Positions 1 to 6,628 of a stretch of DNA of 6,628 nucleotides are shown here, in pieces. The DNA is taken from IMG/VR virus record IMGVR_UViG_2603880148_000010; one strand, written 5' to 3'. Position 1 is the stretch's first letter, and each line of letters starts with the position of its first letter. Below the pieces are notes generated by a model. The model ran no database searches. It was not told the DNA's origin and worked only from the letters and a program-made list of their open reading frames with translations. Made by a program: the position numbers and the translations under genes. Origin of the DNA: a virus (taxonomy: Duplodnaviria; Heunggongvirae; Uroviricota; Caudoviricetes).

Positions 1-155
1 CACCGACGTAGCCCCACTGTTCGTCCATTTCCGCGCAGACGATGACGTCACTGCCCGGCTGTATGCGCGAGGTTACCGACTGCGGCCTGAGTTTTTTAAA
101 TGGCGGAAAATCGTGTTGAGGCCAACGCCCATAATGCGGGCGGTTGCCCGGCATC
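1..155 (-). CDS. insB: IS1 transposase InsB reading frame (5' part only; 3' end beyond window start); normally expressed as the InsAB' fusion by -1 frameshifting
   Basis: Minus-strand frame translates from ATG at 153-155 as [16 protein letters not shown]... and continues without a stop to position 1. It overlaps the insA 3' end in the -1 frame at the A6C slippery motif. Confidence 0.85.
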
Positions 156-348
156 CAACGCCATTCATGGCCATATCAATGATTTTCTGGTGCGTACCGG
201 GTTGAGAAGCGGTGTAAGTGAACTGCAGTTGCCATGTTTTACGGCAGTGAGAGCAGAGATAGCGCTGATGTCCGGCAGTGCTTTTGCCGTTACGCACCAC
301 CCCGTCAGTAGCTGAACAGGAGGGACAGCTGATAGAAACAGAAGCCAC
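73..348 (-). CDS. insA: IS1 InsA (transposition repressor / N-terminal part of the InsAB' transposase), 91 aa
   Basis: ORF translation [43 protein letters not shown]...[11 protein letters not shown] is the canonical InsA, with a CxxC...CxxC zinc finger and helix-turn-helix; TAA stop at 73-75. Confidence 0.93.
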
Positions 349-380
349 TGGAGCACCTCAAAAACACCATCATACACTAA

Positions 381-403
381 ATCAGTAAGTTGGCAGCATC
401 ACC
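381..403. repeat. IS1 terminal inverted repeat (insA-proximal end, IRL); element/chromosome junction at 403|404
   Basis: Minus-strand sequence GGTGATGCTGCCAACTTACTGAT ends exactly where the ynfA reading frame resumes. Confidence 0.85.
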
Positions 404-689: not shown

Positions 690-892
690 ACATAAATCCA
701 TTTTATCAATAAGATAAGAGGAAGTGTCAGCTGACAAAAGGTATTCTATTTCATCTTTTGTCAACCATTCACAGCGCAAATATACGCCTTTTTTTGTGAT
801 CACTCCGGCTTTTTTCGATCTTTATACTTGTATGGTAGTAGCTCAGTTGCGTAGATTTCATGCATCACGACAAGCGATGCAAGGAATCGAAC
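690..892 (+). promoter_or_regulatory. rspA upstream regulatory region (putative promoter; exact elements not resolved)
   Basis: A 200-bp AT-rich non-coding gap precedes rspA. It contains a TATACT -10-like hexamer (823-828), an 8-bp palindrome GTGATCAC (796-803) with a Dam GATC and a TGTGA CRP-like half-site (795-799), and a Shine-Dalgarno AAGGA (881-885) 7 nt before the ATG. The operon is known to be regulated, but the site assignments are my inference. Confidence 0.3.
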
Positions 893-2107
893 ATGAAGAT
901 CGTAAAGGCTGAAGTTTTTGTTACCTGTCCGGGGCGTAATTTCGTCACATTAAAAATCACCACTGAGGACGGTATTACGGGCCTTGGGGATGCCACCCTC
1001 AATGGACGTGAGCTTTCCGTGGCCTCTTATTTGCAGGATCACCTTTGTCCGCAGCTTATTGGTCGCGATGCGCACCGTATCGAAGATATCTGGCAGTTTT
1101 TCTATAAAGGTGCTTACTGGCGTCGCGGTCCGGTTACGATGTCGGCCATTTCAGCGGTTGATATGGCGCTGTGGGATATTAAAGCCAAAGCTGCCAACAT
1201 GCCGCTTTACCAGTTACTCGGCGGCGCGTCTCGTGAAGGGGTGATGGTTTATTGCCATACCACCGGTCACAGTATTGATGAAGCTCTGGATGATTATGCC
1301 CGTCATCAGGAGCTGGGATTCAAAGCCATCCGCGTGCAGTGCGGAATCCCTGGTATGAAAACCACCTACGGCATGTCGAAAGGTAAAGGTCTGGCTTATG
1401 AACCCGCAACCAAAGGACAGTGGCCGGAAGAGCAGCTGTGGTCGACGGAGAAATACCTCGATTTCATGCCGAAATTGTTTGACGCGGTACGTAACAAGTT
1501 TGGTTTTAATGAACATTTGCTGCATGACATGCACCATCGCTTAACGCCTATTGAAGCGGCGCGCTTTGGTAAAAGCATTGAAGATTATCGCATGTTCTGG
1601 ATGGAAGACCCGACGCCTGCAGAAAACCAGGAATGCTTCCGTCTCATTCGCCAACATACCGTCACACCCATCGCAGTGGGTGAAGTCTTCAACAGCATCT
1701 GGGACTGCAAACAACTGATTGAAGAGCAACTCATCGATTATATCCGCACCACGCTGACCCATGCAGGCGGAATTACCGGTATGCGCCGGATTGCCGATTT
1801 TGCTTCGTTGTATCAGGTACGTACTGGCTCACACGGTCCTTCCGATTTGTCACCAGTCTGCATGGCTGCGGCGCTGCACTTTGATCTGTGGGTCCCCAAT
1901 TTCGGTGTCCAGGAGTACATGGGTTATTCCGAACAAATGCTCGAAGTCTTCCCGCACAACTGGACTTTCGATAACGGCTATATGCATCCGGGAGACAAAC
2001 CGGGTCTTGGCATCGAATTCGATGAAAAGCTGGCGGCGAAATATCCCTATGAACCTGCTTATCTGCCAGTCGCACGTCTGGAAGATGGCACGCTGTGGAA
2101 CTGGTAA
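893..2107 (+). CDS. rspA: RspA, starvation-sensing protein; enolase-superfamily D-mannonate dehydratase-like enzyme (404 aa)
   Basis: Translation from ATG 893 ([43 protein letters not shown]...[11 protein letters not shown]) matches RspA as I know it. SD AAGGA sits at proper spacing. The upstream in-frame ATG at 860 in the ORF track lacks an RBS and would add 11 non-native residues. Confidence 0.93.
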
Positions 2108-2118
2108 GGAGTAAGGTA

Positions 2119-3138
2119 ATGAAAAGCATTTTAATTGAAAAACCGAATCAACTGTCGATTATCGAACGTGAAATACCCACCCCGTCAGCGGGTGAAGTAC
2201 GAGTAAAAGTGAAACTTGCCGGAATTTGTGGTTCAGATAGCCATATTTACCGTGGGCATAATCCTTTTGCGAAATATCCGCGCGTCATTGGTCATGAATT
2301 CTTTGGCGTCATTGATGCGGTGGGTGAAGGTGTGGAAAGCGCCAGAGTCGGTGAACGCGTTGCTGTCGATCCAGTGGTCAGCTGTGGGCATTGCTATCCG
2401 TGCTCTATAGGTAAGCCGAACGTTTGTACGACACTTGCTGTATTAGGTGTGCACGCTGACGGTGGTTTCAGTGAATATGCCGTGGTTCCGGCAAAAAATG
2501 CGTGGAAAATTCCTGAAGCAGTGGCCGATCAATATGCGGTGATGATCGAACCTTTTACCATTGCGGCTAACGTTACCGGTCATGGTCAACCGACTGAAAA
2601 TGATACCGTTCTGGTTTATGGTGCCGGTCCAATCGGCCTGACGATCGTTCAGGTATTAAAAGGCGTCTATAACGTTAAAAATGTGATTGTTGCCGATCGC
2701 ATTGATGAACGACTGGAAAAAGCGAAAGAGAGCGGGGCTGACTGGGCGATTAATAACAGCCAGACACCGCTTGGCGAGATTTTCACTGAAAAAGGCATCA
2801 AGCCGACATTAATTATCGATGCGGCTTGTCATCCTTCTATCCTGAAAGAGGCCGTAACGCTGGCTTCTCCAGCGGCACGTATTGTATTGATGGGCTTCTC
2901 CAGTGAACCGTCTGAAGTGATTCAGCAAGGAATTACCGGAAAAGAACTCTCTATTTTCTCTTCACGCTTAAATGCAAATAAATTCCCGGTCGTTATCGAC
3001 TGGTTAAGTAAAGGGTTAATTAAACCAGAAAAATTAATTACCCATACGTTTGATTTCCAGCATGTTGCTGATGCCATTAGTTTATTTGAACAGGATCAAA
3101 AACATTGCTGCAAAGTCTTACTCACTTTTTCTGAATAA
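2119..3138 (+). CDS. rspB: RspB, zinc-dependent medium-chain alcohol/sugar-acid dehydrogenase family protein (339 aa)
   Basis: Translation from ATG 2119 (MKSILIEKPNQLSIIEREIPTPSAGEVRVKVKLAGICGSDSHIYRGHNPF...) with a strong SD AAGGAGTAAGG just upstream. It carries MDR hallmarks: catalytic-zinc motif CGSDSH, GHE motif (VIGHEFFGV), structural-zinc Cys cluster CGHCYPCSIGKPNVC, and a Rossmann GxGxxG (VYGAGPIGL). It starts 12 nt after the rspA stop, so the two form an operon. Confidence 0.93.
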   Translation: MKSILIEKPNQLSIIEREIPTPSAGEVRVKVKLAGICGSDSHIYRGHNPFAKYPRVIGHEFFGVIDAVGEGVESARVGERVAVDPVVSCGHCYPCSIGKPNVCTTLAVLGVHADGGFSEYAVVPAKNAWKIPEAVADQYAVMIEPFTIAANVTGHGQPTENDTVLVYGAGPIGLTIVQVLKGVYNVKNVIVADRIDERLEKAKESGADWAINNSQTPLGEIFTEKGIKPTLIIDAACHPSILKEAVTLASPAARIVLMGFSSEPSEVIQQGITGKELSIFSSRLNANKFPVVIDWLSKGLIKPEKLITHTFDFQHVADAISLFEQDQKHCCKVLLTFSE

Positions 3139-3151
3139 TACCAATAACGGC

Positions 3152-3182
3152 GAGTAAGTAGTACGCATCTTACCTCTTTTTT
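3152..3182 (+). terminator. Weak candidate intrinsic terminator downstream of rspB
   Basis: A short stem GTAAG (3154-3158) / CTTAC (3169-3173) with a 10-nt loop is followed by CTCTTTTTT (3174-3182). The stem is only 5 bp and AT-rich, so this is tentative. Confidence 0.2.
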
Positions 3183-3195
3183 AGAGATAACCATT

Positions 3196-3306
3196 ATGAC
3201 AATAGAAAAACACGAAAGAAGCACTAAGGATTTGGTGAAAGCAGCAGTATCGGGATGGCTGGGCACTGCGCTTGAATTTATGGATTTCAAGAGTCATGCG
3301 TGTTAA
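3196..3306 (+). pseudogene. ydfJ: Orphan 36-codon ORF resembling the N-terminus of a metabolite:H+ symporter (MHS)-type MFS transporter; probable 5' remnant of a gene split by prophage integration
   Basis: ATG 3196 translates as MTIEKHERSTKDLVKAAVSGWLGTALEFMDFKSHAC*. The AxxG-x-L-x-E-(W/F)-x-DF segment is the conserved N-terminal motif of ProP/KgtP/ShiA-type transporters, and the frame stops 5 codons later, right at the AT-rich prophage edge. Naming it ydfJ rests on my recollection that the reference K-12 genome has ydfJ split by the Qin prophage next to rspB; this is unverified here. Confidence 0.55.
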
Positions 3307-3325
3307 CTATTTGATAAATATTAAA

Positions 3326-4606
3326 TTAATTTTTCATTGCTTCGTTATGGGGCATGGTTGGGGCAAACTCGCTTAACTGTGTATTTAACAAAGCTACCTG
3401 TGCATTATTGTTTTCAGACATCCATTTTCCGTATACCTGAAATACCATTTGCGCATCTGCATGGCCCATCTGGTTTGCTATAAATGCCGGGTTAGCACCA
3501 GCTGTCAGCGACCAGCAGGCATAAGTATGTCTCGACTGATATGATTTTCGATGGCGGAGTCCGGCACGTTTTATCGCTGCGTCCCACATCTGCCTTATTG
3601 AGTCAACGGTAAAATGGTCACCATAATTTTTTACTCTCGCTGACACTTCAGGTTGAAAAACAAAGGTGCATTTTTGTTTTTCTGTTCTGCCATACTCTCT
3701 GAGGTGAACATCAATGATATGCTCTTTGCTCAGTCTCGTTAATGTCATCTGACTCCGGAGAGCGTCGATTGCTGGCTTAATAAGATGAATGACCCGATTG
3801 GTTCCCGCCTGTGTTTTTGGTACCGTGAAACGGTCTTTTGCTAAATTTCTCCTGATCATCATTGTTCCATTTTTCAGATCTATGTCCTCCCATCCAAGTG
3901 CACACAGCTCACCAGGGCGAACGCCAGTATAAACAGAAACACACCATAAATTTTTTGCTTGCTGATTTCTGCACGCATCGATAAGACGGATAAATTCCTC
4001 CCGCGAAAGAGGATCCGGAATGGTTCTTGATTCCTTTAATGGCGAGATCCCCTTAAACGGGTTATCTGCCAGGTAACCGTTATCAACACCAAACTGGAAC
4101 ACGGCGTTAAGATTTGTCATGTAATTATTTACAGTTACAGCCGATCTCCCTGGTTGTGTAACAATATAGTTACTTTTGGGGATCTGGTATCCAGTCAGTA
4201 GCTCTTTACGAACCTCCAGTAATTTTTCTTTATTAATCGATGAGGCAAGATTTTTTTCACCGATTATGCTCAGGATATTTTTGATGACGGCACGGTATGT
4301 GTTGAGTGATGTTTTTGCGACTTCAGTTTCTTTCAGTGCCAGAAATTTTTCAGCCAGTTCTTTTATGGTTAAATCTTGTCGGGCCTCACCAAATTTTTCC
4401 AGATTGCGTGAGGAGGGAAACTGTTTTGCATAGTCGAAAACACCAGTTTTTATTGCGTAACAAACAGAGGCGCGTAGCTCACCTGCAACGCGCCTGTTTT
4501 TTGCTGTGTCAGGAACCCCCAGGTTTTCCCTGACTCTTACGCCTTTATAAACAAACCAGATACGTAATTTCCCTCCATGGTTTTCCACGCCTGTCGGATA
4601 TTTCAT
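3326..4606 (-). CDS. Phage integrase, tyrosine site-specific recombinase (about 426 aa)
   Basis: Long minus-strand ORF with tyrosine-recombinase box I (TGVRPGELCALGWEDID) and box II (SRHTYACWSLTAGANPAFIANQMGHADAQMVFQVYGKW), giving an R...H-x-x-R...Y catalytic set. I prefer the ATG at 4606 (MKYPTGVENHGGKLRIWF..., preceded by purine-rich GAGAGAAG) over the ORF-track start at 4621, which has no SD. It sits at the prophage edge next to the host junction. Confidence 0.92.
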   Translation of the reverse strand: MKYPTGVENHGGKLRIWFVYKGVRVRENLGVPDTAKNRRVAGELRASVCYAIKTGVFDYAKQFPSSRNLEKFGEARQDLTIKELAEKFLALKETEVAKTSLNTYRAVIKNILSIIGEKNLASSINKEKLLEVRKELLTGYQIPKSNYIVTQPGRSAVTVNNYMTNLNAVFQFGVDNGYLADNPFKGISPLKESRTIPDPLSREEFIRLIDACRNQQAKNLWCVSVYTGVRPGELCALGWEDIDLKNGTMMIRRNLAKDRFTVPKTQAGTNRVIHLIKPAIDALRSQMTLTRLSKEHIIDVHLREYGRTEKQKCTFVFQPEVSARVKNYGDHFTVDSIRQMWDAAIKRAGLRHRKSYQSRHTYACWSLTAGANPAFIANQMGHADAQMVFQVYGKWMSENNNAQVALLNTQLSEFAPTMPHNEAMKN

Positions 4607-4640
4607 TTCAACTTCTCTCATTAGTTAGTGTGGCTTTTAG

Positions 4641-4892
4641 TCAAGTAAGATGACGTCTTGGTCTTGCTGATGCCTGGCGCTCAATCCAGCGATCAATTTC
4701 TTCCAGGTTGTAAAAGCATGGACTGTTATCCCATGGCATACCGTCATGAGCGACATGCTTATATTCCCTTCCTTCCATAAACGATTTTTCCCGGGCCTTT
4801 TTTAACGTACCTTTTTTTATTCCTTTCAGCGCAATTAACTGCTCTTCGGATACCCATTTGCCGGGAGAGACAATCATGATTACTTCGCTCAT
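4641..4892 (-). CDS. Excisionase-like / small DNA-binding protein (83 aa), the xis position of the int-xis module
   Basis: Small basic ORF (MSEVIMIVSPGKWVSEEQLIALKGIKKGTLKKAREKSFMEGREYKHVAHDGMPWDNSPCFYNLEEIDRWIERQASARPRRHLT) immediately upstream of int and co-directional with it. Size, position and charge fit prophage excisionase-like proteins. The start is ambiguous: ATG 4892 or the in-frame ATG at 4877 (MIVSPGKW...). Confidence 0.7.
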   Translation of the reverse strand: MSEVIMIVSPGKWVSEEQLIALKGIKKGTLKKAREKSFMEGREYKHVAHDGMPWDNSPCFYNLEEIDRWIERQASARPRRHLT

Positions 4893-4920
4893 CGATTTCT
4901 TTATCTCTTACATCAGACGA

Positions 4921-4955
4921 GCGCCGGTTGCAGAATACCAGTCACAACCGGCGAC
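4921..4955. other. Inverted repeat in the intergenic gap between the exonuclease gene and xis
   Basis: CGCCGGTTG (4922-4930) and CAACCGGCG (4946-4954) form a perfect 9-bp stem around a 15-nt loop. On the transcribed minus strand no U-tract follows, so it is not a classical intrinsic terminator. Confidence 0.5.
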
Positions 4956-4964
4956 AGTTGAACA

Positions 4965-6628
4965 TTAAGAATCAGCCTGACTCGGGATCAGTTTTTGCCA
5001 GATAGCTGAAACGTATTTTGCCTGGTAACGGGCGTCATCAAGTGCATTATGGCGCTCACCTTCGAATGGAATAGCCGTTCTGGCATCGAAGTCTATGGCT
5101 TTCCCCAGCTCAACGATTGTGCGTACATCGCGATCGTTGTAGTAACGCCACGGGCAGGGGATTCCCTGCCGTTCGTATGAACGGCGCAAAATCGTGTTGT
5201 CGAAGTTGGCTCCATTTCCCCAGACATGAACAAAAAATTCACCGGAGTTTTCGTCGATAAATTCCCGCAATTGTAACAGTGCATCATCTAACGGGATTTC
5301 ATCGGTCATAATGGCAGATTGCGCTTCGCGTGATTGCTTAAGCCACCATTTAATGGTGTCCCGATCAATGACTCCGCCAGCAGTTTCCAGATCGATAGTC
5401 TTACTAAATTCCGGTCCCATATCTCCGGTTTGCGGATCGAAAAATATTGCACCTATTGAGATGATCGGGGCATCAGGATTTTTTCCCATGGTTTCAAGGT
5501 CGATCATTAGATGGTCACACGTCCTGCTGGTGGATGTGATTTCGTGATGACCGTTCACCTTAATTGAGTGATCTGCCGTCTCGCCAGTTTCATTATCGCT
5601 ATTGTGATGCTGATTGCCGCCAGTGTTCTCCTTGTGCTGATGCGCAGTGCCTTCCATTTCCTCCGGATCATTTTCCTGAACTTCAGGCTGATTCTCTCCA
5701 TCGAATATTTCCTGGTATGTTGCGTCACCCATCACCGCACCACAATCAGGGCAGTTGCCGCCACCGCTATGACCGCAGGCGGTGCAGATCTTTTCCGGTT
5801 CCTGTTGCACTACTGGTTCAGGTTGTTTCGTTTCTGGCTCGTTTTGTTGCGTATTTGGGCTGTTTTGTTCCGCTTTCTGGTCGTTCTGTTCCGTTTCTTG
5901 CTGGTTCTGGTTCACAGAATCGCGGGTCTGGATCCCCTTAACCCATTTCGGATCATTCGGGTCGCTAATCCCTTCAACAAATTCACCACGTGATACTGCA
6001 AGCAGTTCATCGGCGTCAGGCTGGCTGATATTGGCTGCCTGCATAATTTTGTTTACTTCGTCAGCGGTAACTTTTACTGACCCTGGTTGTGCGGTCGTGT
6101 CAGATGCACCAGTATTTTGTTGTGAACCTGAGTATGTACCGTTTTTGCGGGCGAAATATTCTTCTTTCGTGATTTCAGTAGCCCCAGCAGACAGCGCCTT
6201 ATCCAGACCAGAAAGTTTGTTTGCGCGACCGTATTTTTCGCCATCCTTGTCGGTGAAGAGGAAGTAGAACGGCCCCTCACGTTCTACAGATGGTTCGACT
6301 TCCACTTTGCATTCGGTTTTTTCGTTGTCTGGAATTGCCGTTTCCACTGCATCAGTTTCTGGTACTGGCGACGAGAGAGTATCAGTTGCGCTCTGATTTG
6401 TTCCTTCATCTTCAAACACGCCCTTTGTAGTCAGGTATTCAGTAATGTATTTGTTCAGTGCCACAGGGTCTTTGTGAATGTCGATCGGACGTTCACGGAC
6501 AAGGCCAAAAATAGTCTGGCGGTCGTAGCGAAGGGCATCAGGCTGTTTGCGCATTGATGCCGAGATACGCTTCCAGTCTTCGCGGTCGTTGTCGATAACT
6601 TCATTTTTTGCCCAGCGATGGATGCTGC
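4965..6628 (-). CDS. Large prophage protein (5'-partial; >553 aa visible) with a C-terminal DnaQ-like DEDDh 3'-5' exonuclease domain, a CxxC-x7-CxxC zinc-ribbon-like motif, a His-rich tract and a Q/E/N-rich repeat linker
   Basis: The minus-strand ORF stops at TAA 4965-4967. The frame stays open upstream of the ORF-track ATG (6554) to the window edge (...SIHRWAKNEVIDNDREDWKRISAS-MRKQPD...) and no SD precedes 6554, so the true start is outside the window. The C-terminal ~180 aa carry the three DEDDh motifs: Exo I MIDLETMG, Exo II VWGNGANFDNT, Exo III HNALDDARY. Confidence 0.8.
   Translation of the reverse strand, partial: SIHRWAKNEVIDNDREDWKRISASMRKQPDALRYDRQTIFGLVRERPIDIHKDPVALNKYITEYLTTKGVFEDEGTNQSATDTLSSPVPETDAVETAIPDNEKTECKVEVEPSVEREGPFYFLFTDKDGEKYGRANKLSGLDKALSAGATEITKEEYFARKNGTYSGSQQNTGASDTTAQPGSVKVTADEVNKIMQAANISQPDADELLAVSRGEFVEGISDPNDPKWVKGIQTRDSVNQNQQETEQNDQKAEQNSPNTQQNEPETKQPEPVVQQEPEKICTACGHSGGGNCPDCGAVMGDATYQEIFDGENQPEVQENDPEEMEGTAHQHKENTGGNQHHNSDNETGETADHSIKVNGHHEITSTSRTCDHLMIDLETMGKNPDAPIISIGAIFFDPQTGDMGPEFSKTIDLETAGGVIDRDTIKWWLKQSREAQSAIMTDEIPLDDALLQLREFIDENSGEFFVHVWGNGANFDNTILRRSYERQGIPCPWRYYNDRDVRTIVELGKAIDFDARTAIPFEGERHNALDDARYQAKYVSAIWQKLIPSQADS
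5822..5913. repeat. About 4.5 imperfect 21-bp tandem repeats inside the exonuclease CDS (in-frame heptapeptide repeats)
   Basis: Plus-strand units GTTGTTTCGTTTCTGGCTC / GTTTTGTTGCGTATTTGGGCT / GTTTTGTTCCGCTTTCTGGTC / GTTCTGTTCCGTTTCTTGCTG / GTTCTGGTTC... encode (minus strand) ...QQETEQN-DQKAEQN-SPNTQQN-EPETKQP... Confidence 0.7.

What the first reader, a model, noticed from the sequence alone, without database searches (positions are those of the whole stretch)
5822..5913. In-frame 21-bp tandem repeats encoding a heptad-like Q/E/N-rich linker
About 4.5 imperfect head-to-tail copies of a 21-nt unit lie inside the exonuclease gene and encode xQxxEQN-type heptapeptides. A period of 21 is divisible by 3, so copy-number changes from replication slippage or recombination would alter linker length without breaking the frame. 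That is a potential source of between-strain length polymorphism or rapidly evolving spacer length between the N-terminal region and the zinc-ribbon and nuclease modules. The same repetitiveness explains the long spurious antisense ORFs in the track.
Basis: seen in the sequence. Interest (0 to 1): 0.4.

Follow-up and report, generated by a model that had tools for sequence, protein, structure and literature searches.

The report
In-frame 21-bp repeat, variable linker
A real but decayed 21-base tandem repeat inside a prophage exonuclease gene encodes a floppy Q/N/E/P-rich spacer whose unit number occasionally changes between E. coli strains (2 to 9 units, 5 in about 96-97% of gene copies), an ordinary slow coding minisatellite rather than a switch.

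Summary
On the minus strand, window 5909-5790 holds four good, one degenerate and one partial 21-nt unit. They are in frame and encode QNQQETE/QNDQKAE/QNSPNTQ/QNEPETK/QPEPVVQ/QEPEK. TRF scores the array 87. Lag-21 identity is 0.60 against 0.40 for codon shuffles.

The gene is the intact homologue of the K-12 Qin pseudogene ydfE, with a C-terminal DEDDh 3'-5' exonuclease domain. The repeat sits between a conserved RGEFVEGISDPNDPKWVKG motif and a C4 zinc ribbon.

The distance between the flanking anchors falls in classes 119, 137, 158, 179, 200 and 263 nt. The main classes differ by exact multiples of 21. At least nine independent gains or losses of one or two units lie on otherwise near-identical alleles. 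One genome carries five identical units in tandem.

The polymorphism is rare. About 185 of 4069 E. coli genomes, roughly 3-4% of 8104 gene copies, carry a copy that is not 5 units long. Variant alleles are inherited stably.

The same module, with 3-5 units, also sits in the RecE (exonuclease VIII) N-terminal region.

The peptide has no hydrophobic heptad core, so it is most likely a disordered tether and not a coiled coil. Nothing points to a DNA-level function. This is an ordinary, low-interest finding.

The parts
4965..6626 (-). 3' 553 codons plus stop of the prophage exonuclease gene. Full-length homologues are 823-824 aa with the architecture YdfE_N + YdfE_C + Rv2179c-like. The N-terminus lies beyond the window edge.
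   Evidence: The frame is open to 6626. Homologues of 823-824 aa are 92-98% identical. PHROG 2082 'exonuclease' matches profile positions 271-822 of 823.
5934..5990 (-). Conserved motif RGEFVEGISDPNDPKWVKG just upstream (N-terminal side) of the repeat. PKWVKG was used as the 5' anchor.
   Evidence: Nearly invariant in 121 homologues. Retained in RecE and in distant RecE-like proteins that have no repeat.
5790..5909 (-). The 21-nt in-frame tandem array as a whole: 5 units plus a partial sixth, 40 codons.
   Evidence: TRF, unit table and shuffle test, unit-register indels in homologues.
5889..5909 (-). Unit 1: CAGAACCAGCAAGAAACGGAA = QNQQETE
5868..5888 (-). Unit 2: CAGAACGACCAGAAAGCGGAA = QNDQKAE. 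This is the unit most often lost or duplicated in other strains.
5847..5867 (-). Unit 3: CAAAACAGCCCAAATACGCAA = QNSPNTQ. This is the unit expanded to five copies in strain JNEC-KY176.
5826..5846 (-). Unit 4: CAAAACGAGCCAGAAACGAAA = QNEPETK
5805..5825 (-). Unit 5 (degenerate): CAACCTGAACCAGTAGTGCAA = QPEPVVQ. This unit is deleted in the commonest variant allele.
5790..5804 (-). Partial unit 6: CAGGAACCGGAAAAG = QEPEK
5739..5786 (-). C4 zinc-ribbon-like motif CTACGHSGGGNCPDCG (CxxC-x8-CxxC). The first CxxCG was used as the 3' anchor.
   Evidence: Read from the translation. The four Cys are invariant or nearly invariant in 121 homologues.
5514..5738 (-). Acidic, His/Asn-rich low-complexity linker between the zinc ribbon and the nuclease domain.
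   Evidence: Composition for the 72 residues after the zinc ribbon (protein residues 301-372): mean Kyte-Doolittle hydropathy -1.7, net charge -14. Highest pN/pS of the gene, 0.73.
4998..5513 (-). DEDDh 3'-5' exonuclease domain (Pfam Rv2179c-like).
   Evidence: PF16473, E = 2.6e-67, residues 348-519 of the 529-aa ORF. Motifs DLET, NFDN and HNALDD are visible.

Best explanation
**What it is.** The tract is an old, partly decayed coding minisatellite. A 21-nt unit (one heptapeptide, consensus Q-N-x-[Q/P]-x-[T/A]-[E/Q/K]) was duplicated in tandem within a mobile protein module. That module consists of the RGEFVEGISDPNDPKWVKG motif, the repeat, a C4 zinc ribbon and an acidic tail. Lambdoid and Rac-type prophages of Escherichia and Shigella place it in front of either a DEDDh 3'-5' exonuclease (this gene, the intact form of K-12 ydfE) or the RecE 5'-3' exonuclease.

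**DNA level.**
- The units have diverged to 62-81% identity but keep in-register stretches such as GAACARAAC.
- Occasional replication slippage or unequal recombination between neighbouring units therefore still adds or removes exactly 21 or 42 nt, always in frame.
- Once a duplication makes two identical units, further expansion becomes easier. One allele has five identical units.
- That these events occurred is shown. The molecular route (slippage versus RecA-dependent unequal exchange) is inferred.

**Protein level (inferred from composition).**
- The 41 residues are 93% Q/E/N/K/P/S/T/D, have no hydrophobic periodicity and contain 5 prolines.
- They most likely form a disordered, acidic tether between the N-terminal YdfE/RecE-N part and the zinc ribbon plus nuclease.
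- Intact genes exist with 2 to 9 units, so length is tolerated over a wide range. Five units predominate, which suggests weak stabilising selection on length or simply a low mutation rate.

It is not a phase-variation switch.
For: **The repeat is real and in frame**
- TRF and shuffle statistics.

**All main length classes differ by 21 nt**
- Anchor-to-anchor lengths are 137, 158, 179 and 200 nt in 250 loci, and 263 nt in one genome.
- The rare exceptions are 3-9-nt codon indels: 146, 161, 182 and 185 nt.

**Each variant is a clean indel**
- Each aligns to an otherwise 98-100% identical 5-unit allele with a single 21- or 42-nt gap placed in short direct repeats (L026). This indicates recent, independent events.
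- Distinct events seen:
  - loss of unit 5
  - loss of unit 2, in three backgrounds
  - loss of units 4-5
  - loss of units 2-3
  - duplication ERNYQKA
  - the hybrid QNGQKAE/QNSQKAE
  - duplication QNSPNAL, in at least three backgrounds

**Frequency in 5426 complete E. coli genomes**
- The DEDD domain is present in 4069 genomes, at 8104 places.
- Junction-specific probes found:
  - loss of unit 5 in 133 genomes, 192 places
  - other -21 alleles in 16 genomes
  - -42 alleles in about 11 genomes
  - +21 alleles in 9 + 2 genomes
  - the QNSPNAL duplication in 14 genomes
- An even sample of 59 genomes showed 58 canonical lengths and one +21.
- Of 114 protein cluster representatives with the anchor motif, 111 are canonical and 3 are -7 aa.

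**Expansion after duplication**
- Strain JNEC-KY176 has four identical units plus one near-identical unit in tandem, and the gene is intact at 851 aa.

**Module shared with RecE**
-.

**Linker character**
- Mean Kyte-Doolittle hydropathy is -2.5, 5% of residues are hydrophobic, and at most 2 of 11 a/d positions are hydrophobic in any register.

**No DNA-level constraint**
- pS in the repeat is 0.15, against 0.11-0.23 in the flanks.
Against: - Disorder is inferred from composition only. The one structure prediction was uninformative throughout: mean pLDDT 37, and even the nuclease domain was below 50.
- pN/pS in the repeat (0.33) is lower than in the adjacent acidic linker (0.73). Many Q/N/E positions are invariant in close homologues. 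The peptide sequence, and not only its length, may therefore matter.
- Allele frequencies are lower bounds.
- No mutation rate was measured.
Confidence: 0.8

Rival explanations
1. Hypermutable contingency-type VNTR. Under this reading the tract changes unit number at high frequency within populations, and the phage or host exploits this for rapid adaptive switching of exonuclease properties.
For: - At least nine independent unit gains or losses are seen on near-identical backgrounds.
- One allele has expanded to five identical units.
- Indels are several-fold more frequent per codon here than in the flanking 95-110-codon segments, where 1 of 97 and 1 of 78 genes vary.
Against: - Units are only 62-81% identical, which is poor substrate for slippage.
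- About 96-97% of copies keep 5 units, although synonymous divergence between alleles reaches 15%.
- The commonest variant junction is identical in 133 genomes and 192 places, so it is inherited rather than regenerated.
- No allele is out of frame, so there is no on/off switching.
- No +2 allele exists in IMG/VR.
Confidence: 0.06
2. Array of short linear motifs. Under this reading each heptad (QNxPxTx or QNxQKAE) is a binding site for a partner, either a host or phage protein or the protein's own domains. Unit number would then set valency rather than spacer length alone.
For: - The repeat is under more purifying selection (pN/pS 0.33) than the adjacent acidic linker (0.73).
- Q, N and E positions recur in register and are invariant across 121 close homologues.
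- The same tract is kept in front of two unrelated nucleases.
Against: - Distant RecE-like proteins from Citrobacter and Atlantibacter keep the flanking DPNDPKW motif but replace the tract with unrelated acidic or S/T-rich low-complexity sequence.
- Intact genes tolerate 2-9 units.
- No partner is known and none can be tested here.
- The homologues compared are close (at least 92% identical), so invariance carries little weight.
Confidence: 0.1
3. DNA-level element. Under this reading the 21-bp repeats are protein-binding sites that happen to lie in a coding region, as the lambda ori iterons lie inside gene O, or they serve an antisense gene.
For: - The period of 21 bp is about two helical turns.
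- All three antisense frames are open across the tract.
- The gene lies next to xis and int.
Against: - Synonymous divergence in the tract (pS 0.15) is not reduced relative to the flanks (0.11-0.23).
- Units differ at all codon positions.
- The antisense frames are open because the sense strand is 3.3% T, and the antisense ORFs extend far beyond the tract.
- The tract travels with the protein module into RecE genes in a different genomic context.
- The att site expected beside int lies on the other side of int, next to rspB.
Confidence: 0.03
4. Compositional artefact. Under this reading the apparent periodicity is only what a Q/E/N-rich low-complexity segment with biased codons would give.
For: - The segment is strongly biased: 50% A and 3% T on the sense strand.
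- The fifth and sixth units are barely recognisable.
Against: - Codon shuffles that preserve composition never reach the observed lag-21 identity (0 of 20,000). Only 0.12% reach it at any lag.
- TRF scores the array 87.
- Natural indels fall exactly in unit register.
Confidence: 0.01

Closest known systems
Linker in the N-terminal region of RecE (exonuclease VIII) of the Rac prophage and its relatives
   Same: It is the homologous module: motif RGEFV[DE]GISDPNDPKWVKG, the same 21-nt heptad units, a C4 zinc ribbon and an acidic tail, at 63-88% identity. Unit number also varies in steps of 21 nt: 137 nt in K-12-type RecE, and 158, 161, 179 and 182 nt in others.
   Different: The C-terminal nuclease is a RecE-type 5'-3' exonuclease rather than a DEDDh 3'-5' exonuclease, and the N-terminal part differs. 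K-12-type RecE has 3 units plus a partial unit, against 5 plus a partial unit here. From my own knowledge, not tested here: the N-terminal ~600 residues of RecE are dispensable for RecET recombineering, and their role is unclear.
Intragenic tandem repeat of E. coli tolA (Zhou, Michiels and Aertsen 2012, PMC3477136)
   Same: It is an in-frame tandem repeat inside an E. coli gene that encodes a spacer-like region. Copy number differs among strains. Contractions arise spontaneously, are RecA-dependent, and occur at up to 6.9e-5 according to the abstract. The protein functions over a wide range of copy numbers.
   Different: The authors describe tolA as 'highly variable' among strains, and copy number there affects stress tolerance. 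Here about 96-97% of copies share one length, the units are much more diverged, no phenotype is known, and the gene is prophage-borne.
Phase-variable simple-sequence contingency loci
   Same: Repeat-mediated slippage changes the number of units.
   Different: Contingency loci use 1-7-nt units that are perfect, shift the reading frame and switch expression on and off at high rates. Here the units are 21 nt and imperfect, all changes are in frame, and change is rare.
DnaQ-like 3'-5' nuclease genes of lambdoid phages near int (Genome Res 2025, PMC12315714)
   Same: That survey notes DnaQ-type nuclease genes in lambdoid early-left operons, some 'very near int', and RecE relatives with shuffled domains. 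The gene here lies directly next to xis-int.
   Different: In the passages retrieved, the paper does not describe the repeat or the module shared with RecE.

Membership tests
Coding minisatellite / in-frame VNTR | Statistically significant head-to-tail copies of one unit | tested here: met
   TRF score 87 with period 21. z = 4.6 against codon shuffles.
Coding minisatellite / in-frame VNTR | Unit length is a multiple of 3 and in register with the reading frame | tested here: met
   21 nt = 7 codons, and unit 1 starts at a codon boundary.
Coding minisatellite / in-frame VNTR | Copy number differs among strains, by whole units | tested here: met
   Lengths of 137, 158, 179, 200 and 263 nt, seen as clean 21- or 42-nt gaps. 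About 185 of 4069 genomes carry a variant copy.
Hypermutable contingency locus | Near-perfect units and a high rate of change within lineages | tested here: not met
   Units are 62-81% identical. One deletion junction is identical in 133 genomes. About 96-97% of copies are canonical. The rate itself was not measured.
Hypermutable contingency locus | Changes switch expression, by frameshift or promoter spacing | tested here: not met
   All length classes keep the frame. The variant genes inspected are intact.
Coiled-coil heptad repeat | Hydrophobic residues at the a and d positions, and no helix breakers | tested here: not met
   At most 2 of 11 a/d positions are hydrophobic in any of the 7 registers, and there are 5 prolines in 41 residues.
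Intrinsically disordered linker | Low hydropathy, high content of polar and charged residues and proline, and no predicted or observed fold | tested here: inconclusive
   Composition fits: mean Kyte-Doolittle hydropathy -2.5 and 93% Q/E/N/K/P/S/T/D. The AlphaFold model was poor everywhere, so it does not discriminate. No solved structure covers the tract.
DEDDh / Rv2179c-like 3'-5' exonuclease (host gene) | Match to the family profile above its threshold | tested here: met
   PF16473, 226 bits against a cut-off of 27.
DEDDh / Rv2179c-like 3'-5' exonuclease (host gene) | Catalytic D-E-D-D and H residues | tested here: met
   DLET, NFDN and HNALDD are present in the translation and invariant in homologues. 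Assignment of these residues to the Exo I-III motifs rests on my own knowledge. Activity was not tested.
Zinc ribbon (flanking element) | Two CxxC pairs that are conserved | tested here: met
   CTAC-x8-CPDC. The Cys residues are invariant or nearly invariant. Metal binding cannot be tested here.
Iteron-type DNA binding-site array | Sequence constraint independent of coding, seen as reduced synonymous change | tested here: not met
   pS is 0.15 in the repeat against 0.11-0.23 in the flanks.

The most novel reading that the evidence does not exclude
The heptad array could be a functional, tunable element of a mobile 'adaptor' module shared by two unrelated phage nucleases (RecE and the YdfE-type DEDDh exonuclease). 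Unit number would then set the reach or valency with which the zinc ribbon and nuclease are coupled to an N-terminal scaffold or to a host partner. The occasional expansions and contractions, including the 9-unit allele, would be selected variants in phage-host or phage-phage conflict rather than neutral slippage products.
Probability: 0.07. Interest if true: 0.5.

Novelty: new member of a known kind. Interest (0 to 1): 0.22.

Why it matters
- It adds one more documented in-frame minisatellite in E. coli prophage genes. The locus is a simple length marker that could separate some prophage lineages. For example, the unit-5 deletion is found in strains labelled O26, O103, O45 and O111.
- It shows that the poorly understood region upstream of the RecE nuclease domain and the YdfE-type exonuclease share one exchangeable module with a length-variable tether. 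That is useful when engineering truncated or chimeric RecE proteins, or when annotating these mosaic genes.
- It does not change any general picture. In-frame repeats that encode variable linkers are well known.

Tried and rejected
1. **AlphaFold2 on the 553-residue window protein, with 120 homologues.** Mean pLDDT was 37 and even the nuclease domain was below 50, because the alignment holds only sequences at least 92% identical. The model says nothing specific about the repeat and was not used for fold searches.
2. **First pooled junction-probe search.** It gave 263 genomes. About 90-100 of those were hits at 93-96% identity to the probe for loss of units 2-3. Fetching two of them showed they are canonical 5-unit alleles in which unit 2 resembles unit 4. 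Only full-length matches at 97.7% identity or more were counted afterwards.
3. **Automatic choice of probes by minimal shared substring.** It picked SNP-rich windows rather than junctions. It was replaced by junction-centred probes.
4. **Literature searches.** Searches for ydfE/Qin/exonuclease and for a 21-bp VNTR in a prophage exonuclease found nothing. A search for 'full-length RecE' was swamped by 'receptor'.
5. **Coiled-coil reading of 'heptad'.** Rejected.
6. **Iteron or antisense-gene reading.** Rejected on synonymous-site and composition grounds.
7. **Exact allele frequencies in IMG/VR.** These could not be obtained because the scans for the common length classes stop at 120 rows. Only the rare classes were scanned to completion.
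Full report
**1. The observation**

Tandem Repeats Finder reports a single array in the gene, at 5823-5906. It has period 21, 4.0 copies, 74% matches and a score of 87.

The gene is on the minus strand. Its stop codon is at 4965-4967, and the frame is still open at the right edge of the window. The window therefore holds only the C-terminal 553 codons. Close homologues are 823-824 aa long.

In the coding sense the units start on a codon boundary:

| Window coordinates | Peptide |
|---|---|
| 5909-5889 | QNQQETE |
| 5888-5868 | QNDQKAE |
| 5867-5847 | QNSPNTQ |
| 5846-5826 | QNEPETK |
| 5825-5805 | QPEPVVQ (degenerate) |
| 5804-5790 | QEPEK (partial) |

The four good units are 62-81% identical to one another.

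Lag-21 nucleotide identity over the tract is 0.60, against 0.40 +/- 0.04 in 20,000 codon shuffles (z = 4.6). No shuffle reached the observed value at lag 21, and 0.12% reached it at any lag that is a multiple of 3. Amino-acid identity peaks at lags 7, 14 and 21. The repeat is real and is more than a composition effect.

**2. The gene and its surroundings**

The C-terminal domain matches Pfam Rv2179c-like 3'-5' exoribonuclease (PF16473, E = 2.6e-67). The DLET, NFDN and HNALDD motifs are present.

Full-length homologues additionally carry the YdfE_N and YdfE_C families. In K-12, ydfE is a pseudogene of the Qin prophage cut by IS2. It lies beside intQ, rspB, rspA and ynfA.

The window shows the same chromosomal site with an intact prophage end:
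- an IS1 end
- a ynfA remnant
- rspA
- rspB
- int (3326-4621, minus strand)
- xis (4641-4892, minus strand)
- the exonuclease gene

A recent survey of lambdoid phages notes DnaQ-type nuclease genes close to int (PMC12315714).

Within the protein, the repeat lies between a nearly invariant motif RGEFVEGISDPNDPKWVKG (5990-5934) and a conserved C4 motif CTACGHSGGGNCPDCG (5786-5739). An acidic linker and then the nuclease domain follow.

**3. Comparison with orthologues**

I measured the distance from the PKWVKG codons to the first CxxCG codons. It is 179 nt in the window.

- *Close protein homologues.* Among the 114 close homologues (at least 92% identical) that carry the anchor motif, 111 have the same length. 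Three lack exactly one heptad, and their DNA shows a clean 21-nt deletion.
- *Even sample of E. coli genomes.* An even sample across 4125 matching complete-genome records gave 58 canonical lengths and one +21. That one is strain TB06052, with a perfect duplication of the unit encoding ERNYQKA.
- *IMG/VR pattern scans.* Of the 240 matches from the first two scans, 226 fell into the classes 137, 158, 179 and 200 nt. The rest were a few alleles with 3-9-nt codon indels (146, 161, 182 and 185 nt) and two chance matches of 138 and 157 nt.
- *Rare classes, scanned to completion.* These gave one allele of 119 nt (about 2 units), thirteen of 200 nt in three different architectures, and none of 221 nt.

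Each variant aligns to a 5-unit allele that is otherwise 98-100% identical. The alignment has one 21- or 42-nt gap lying in short direct repeats such as GAACARAAC or ACAG. Counting distinct architectures and backgrounds gives at least nine independent events.

**4. How common the variants are**

The nuclease domain is present in 4069 of 5426 complete E. coli genomes, at 8104 places.

I used junction-specific 44-48-nt probes. They were designed so that the 5-unit alleles in the reference panel share fewer than 28 consecutive bases with them, with one probe at exactly 28. They found:

| Variant | Genomes |
|---|---|
| Loss of unit 5 | 133 (192 places), including strains labelled O26, O103, O45 and O111 |
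| Loss of unit 2, three backgrounds | 6 + 5 + 5 |
| Two-unit losses | 4 + about 7 |
| ERNYQKA duplication | 9 |
| QNGQKAE/QNSQKAE hybrid insertion | 2, including strain 55989 |
| QNSPNAL duplication | 14 |

Hits at 93-96% identity to one probe turned out to be canonical alleles and were discarded.

In total, about 185 of 4069 genomes carry a copy with a unit number other than five. That is roughly 3-4% of gene copies. It is a lower bound, because only junctions already seen elsewhere were probed.

One of the QNSPNAL-duplication genomes, JNEC-KY176, has four identical units plus one near-identical unit in tandem. Its anchor-to-anchor distance is 263 nt, and the gene is intact at 851 codons. Expansion therefore continues once identical units exist.

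In one IMG/VR sample, flanking segments of 95-110 codons varied in length in about 1% of genes. The 41-codon repeat is thus several-fold more indel-prone per codon than its neighbours. It is still far from hypermutable.

**5. The module is shared with RecE**

DNA and protein searches showed that the stretch from the RGEFVEG motif to the end of the acidic tail also occurs in exonuclease VIII (RecE) genes.
- K-12-type RecE has YQNQPET/EKTSPDM/NQPEPVV/QQEPE (137 nt).
- Rac-SA53 RecE has one more unit (158 nt).
- Other RecE genes have 161, 179 or 182 nt.

Representatives at 50% identity show further combinations:
- a RecE-type N-terminus joined to the DEDD nuclease
- the module followed by other C-termini
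- a diverged D/E-rich version of the repeat

More distant RecE-like proteins of Citrobacter and Atlantibacter keep the DPNDPKW motif. They replace the repeat and zinc ribbon with unrelated acidic low-complexity sequence. The repeat therefore belongs to an exchangeable module of Escherichia/Shigella prophage nucleases. That position in the protein generally accepts low-complexity spacers.

**6. What the tract does**

- *Composition.* The 41 residues are 93% Q/E/N/K/P/S/T/D. Mean Kyte-Doolittle hydropathy is -2.5, net charge is -6, and there are 5 prolines.
- *No coiled coil.* In none of the seven heptad registers are more than 2 of 11 a/d positions hydrophobic. The tract most likely forms a disordered acidic tether. 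This is an inference from composition.
- *No structural confirmation.* The structure prediction was uninformative, and no solved structure covers the region.
- *Substitution pattern.* Among 61 distinct 5-unit alleles, pN/pS in the repeat is 0.33. It is 0.19 in the upstream domain, 0.19 in the zinc ribbon, 0.73 in the acidic linker and 0.49 in the nuclease domain. pS is 0.15, not lower than elsewhere.

The tract is therefore not evolving fast by substitution, and its synonymous sites carry no extra constraint. That argues against a DNA-level role such as iterons. The moderate protein-level constraint leaves room for a sequence-specific role of the heptads, which I keep as a minority rival.

**7. 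The antisense ORFs**

All three plus-strand frames are free of stop codons across the tract, because the sense strand there is 50% A and only 3.3% T. The three long antisense ORFs are 378-486 nt long and only 25-33% of each overlaps the repeat. T-poor composition of the whole linker region explains them, not repetition as such.

**8. Verdict**

This is an in-frame 21-nt coding minisatellite that does generate between-strain differences in linker length, from 2 to 9 units.

It is a slow, mostly fixed one, with five units in about 96-97% of copies. It is not a coiled coil and there is no sign of switching.

The closest analogues are the homologous tract in RecE and the intragenic repeat of E. 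coli tolA (PMC3477136).

It is a new member of a well-known kind, and interest is low.

Noticed in passing
window 1-403 (IS1 end; insA ORF 73-348, minus strand) and 404-687 (ynfA remnant, plus strand): An IS1 element is inserted in the 5' part of ynfA. It shows InsA zinc-ribbon and HTH domains, and a terminal inverted repeat ending at about 403. The remaining ynfA ORF matches only positions 24-106 of the 107-position YnfA/UPF0060 profile, so ynfA is disrupted in this strain.
   Followed up: partly
window 860-6626; compare L270 (K-12 NC_000913.3 1646000-1658000): The window is the K-12 Qin prophage attachment site (ynfA-rspA-rspB | int-xis-ydfE) with an intact integrase, excisionase and full-length exonuclease. 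In K-12, ydfE and intQ are pseudogenes cut by IS2.
   Followed up: yes
window 5511-5990; L002 (Rac-SA53 recE); L007-L012 (K-12-type recE): The whole module of about 150 residues (motif + repeat + zinc ribbon + acidic tail) is shared at 63-88% identity between the DEDDh 3'-5' exonuclease and the RecE 5'-3' exonuclease. Chimeras exist with a RecE N-terminus and a DEDD C-terminus, or with other C-termini (P0122, P0127, P0135). This points to domain shuffling among prophage nucleases.
   Followed up: partly
L299 (E. coli JNEC-KY176, NZ_AP045172.1 3376448-3377291): This allele has five tandem QNSPNAL-type units, four of them identical at the DNA level, in an intact 851-codon gene. It is the only expanded array found.
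   Followed up: yes
window 4998-5513, and loci with the DEDD domain: Pairwise pN/pS of the nuclease domain among 5-unit alleles is unexpectedly high (0.49). The likely cause is that divergent allele classes are mixed by recombination. This was not examined further.
   Followed up: no
L005, L010, L011, L014 (genome-contig hits): Near-identical copies of this E. coli prophage gene appear in metagenome-assembled genomes labelled Veillonella parvula, Roseburia sp. and 'Proteobacteria bacterium', and in a Nitrolancea hollandica contig. These are most likely binning or contamination artefacts.
   Followed up: no
window 3002-3024: TRF also lists a trivial 12-nt repeat of 1.9 copies (GGTTAAGTAAAG, score 39) near the 3' end of rspB. 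It is probably chance.
   Followed up: no
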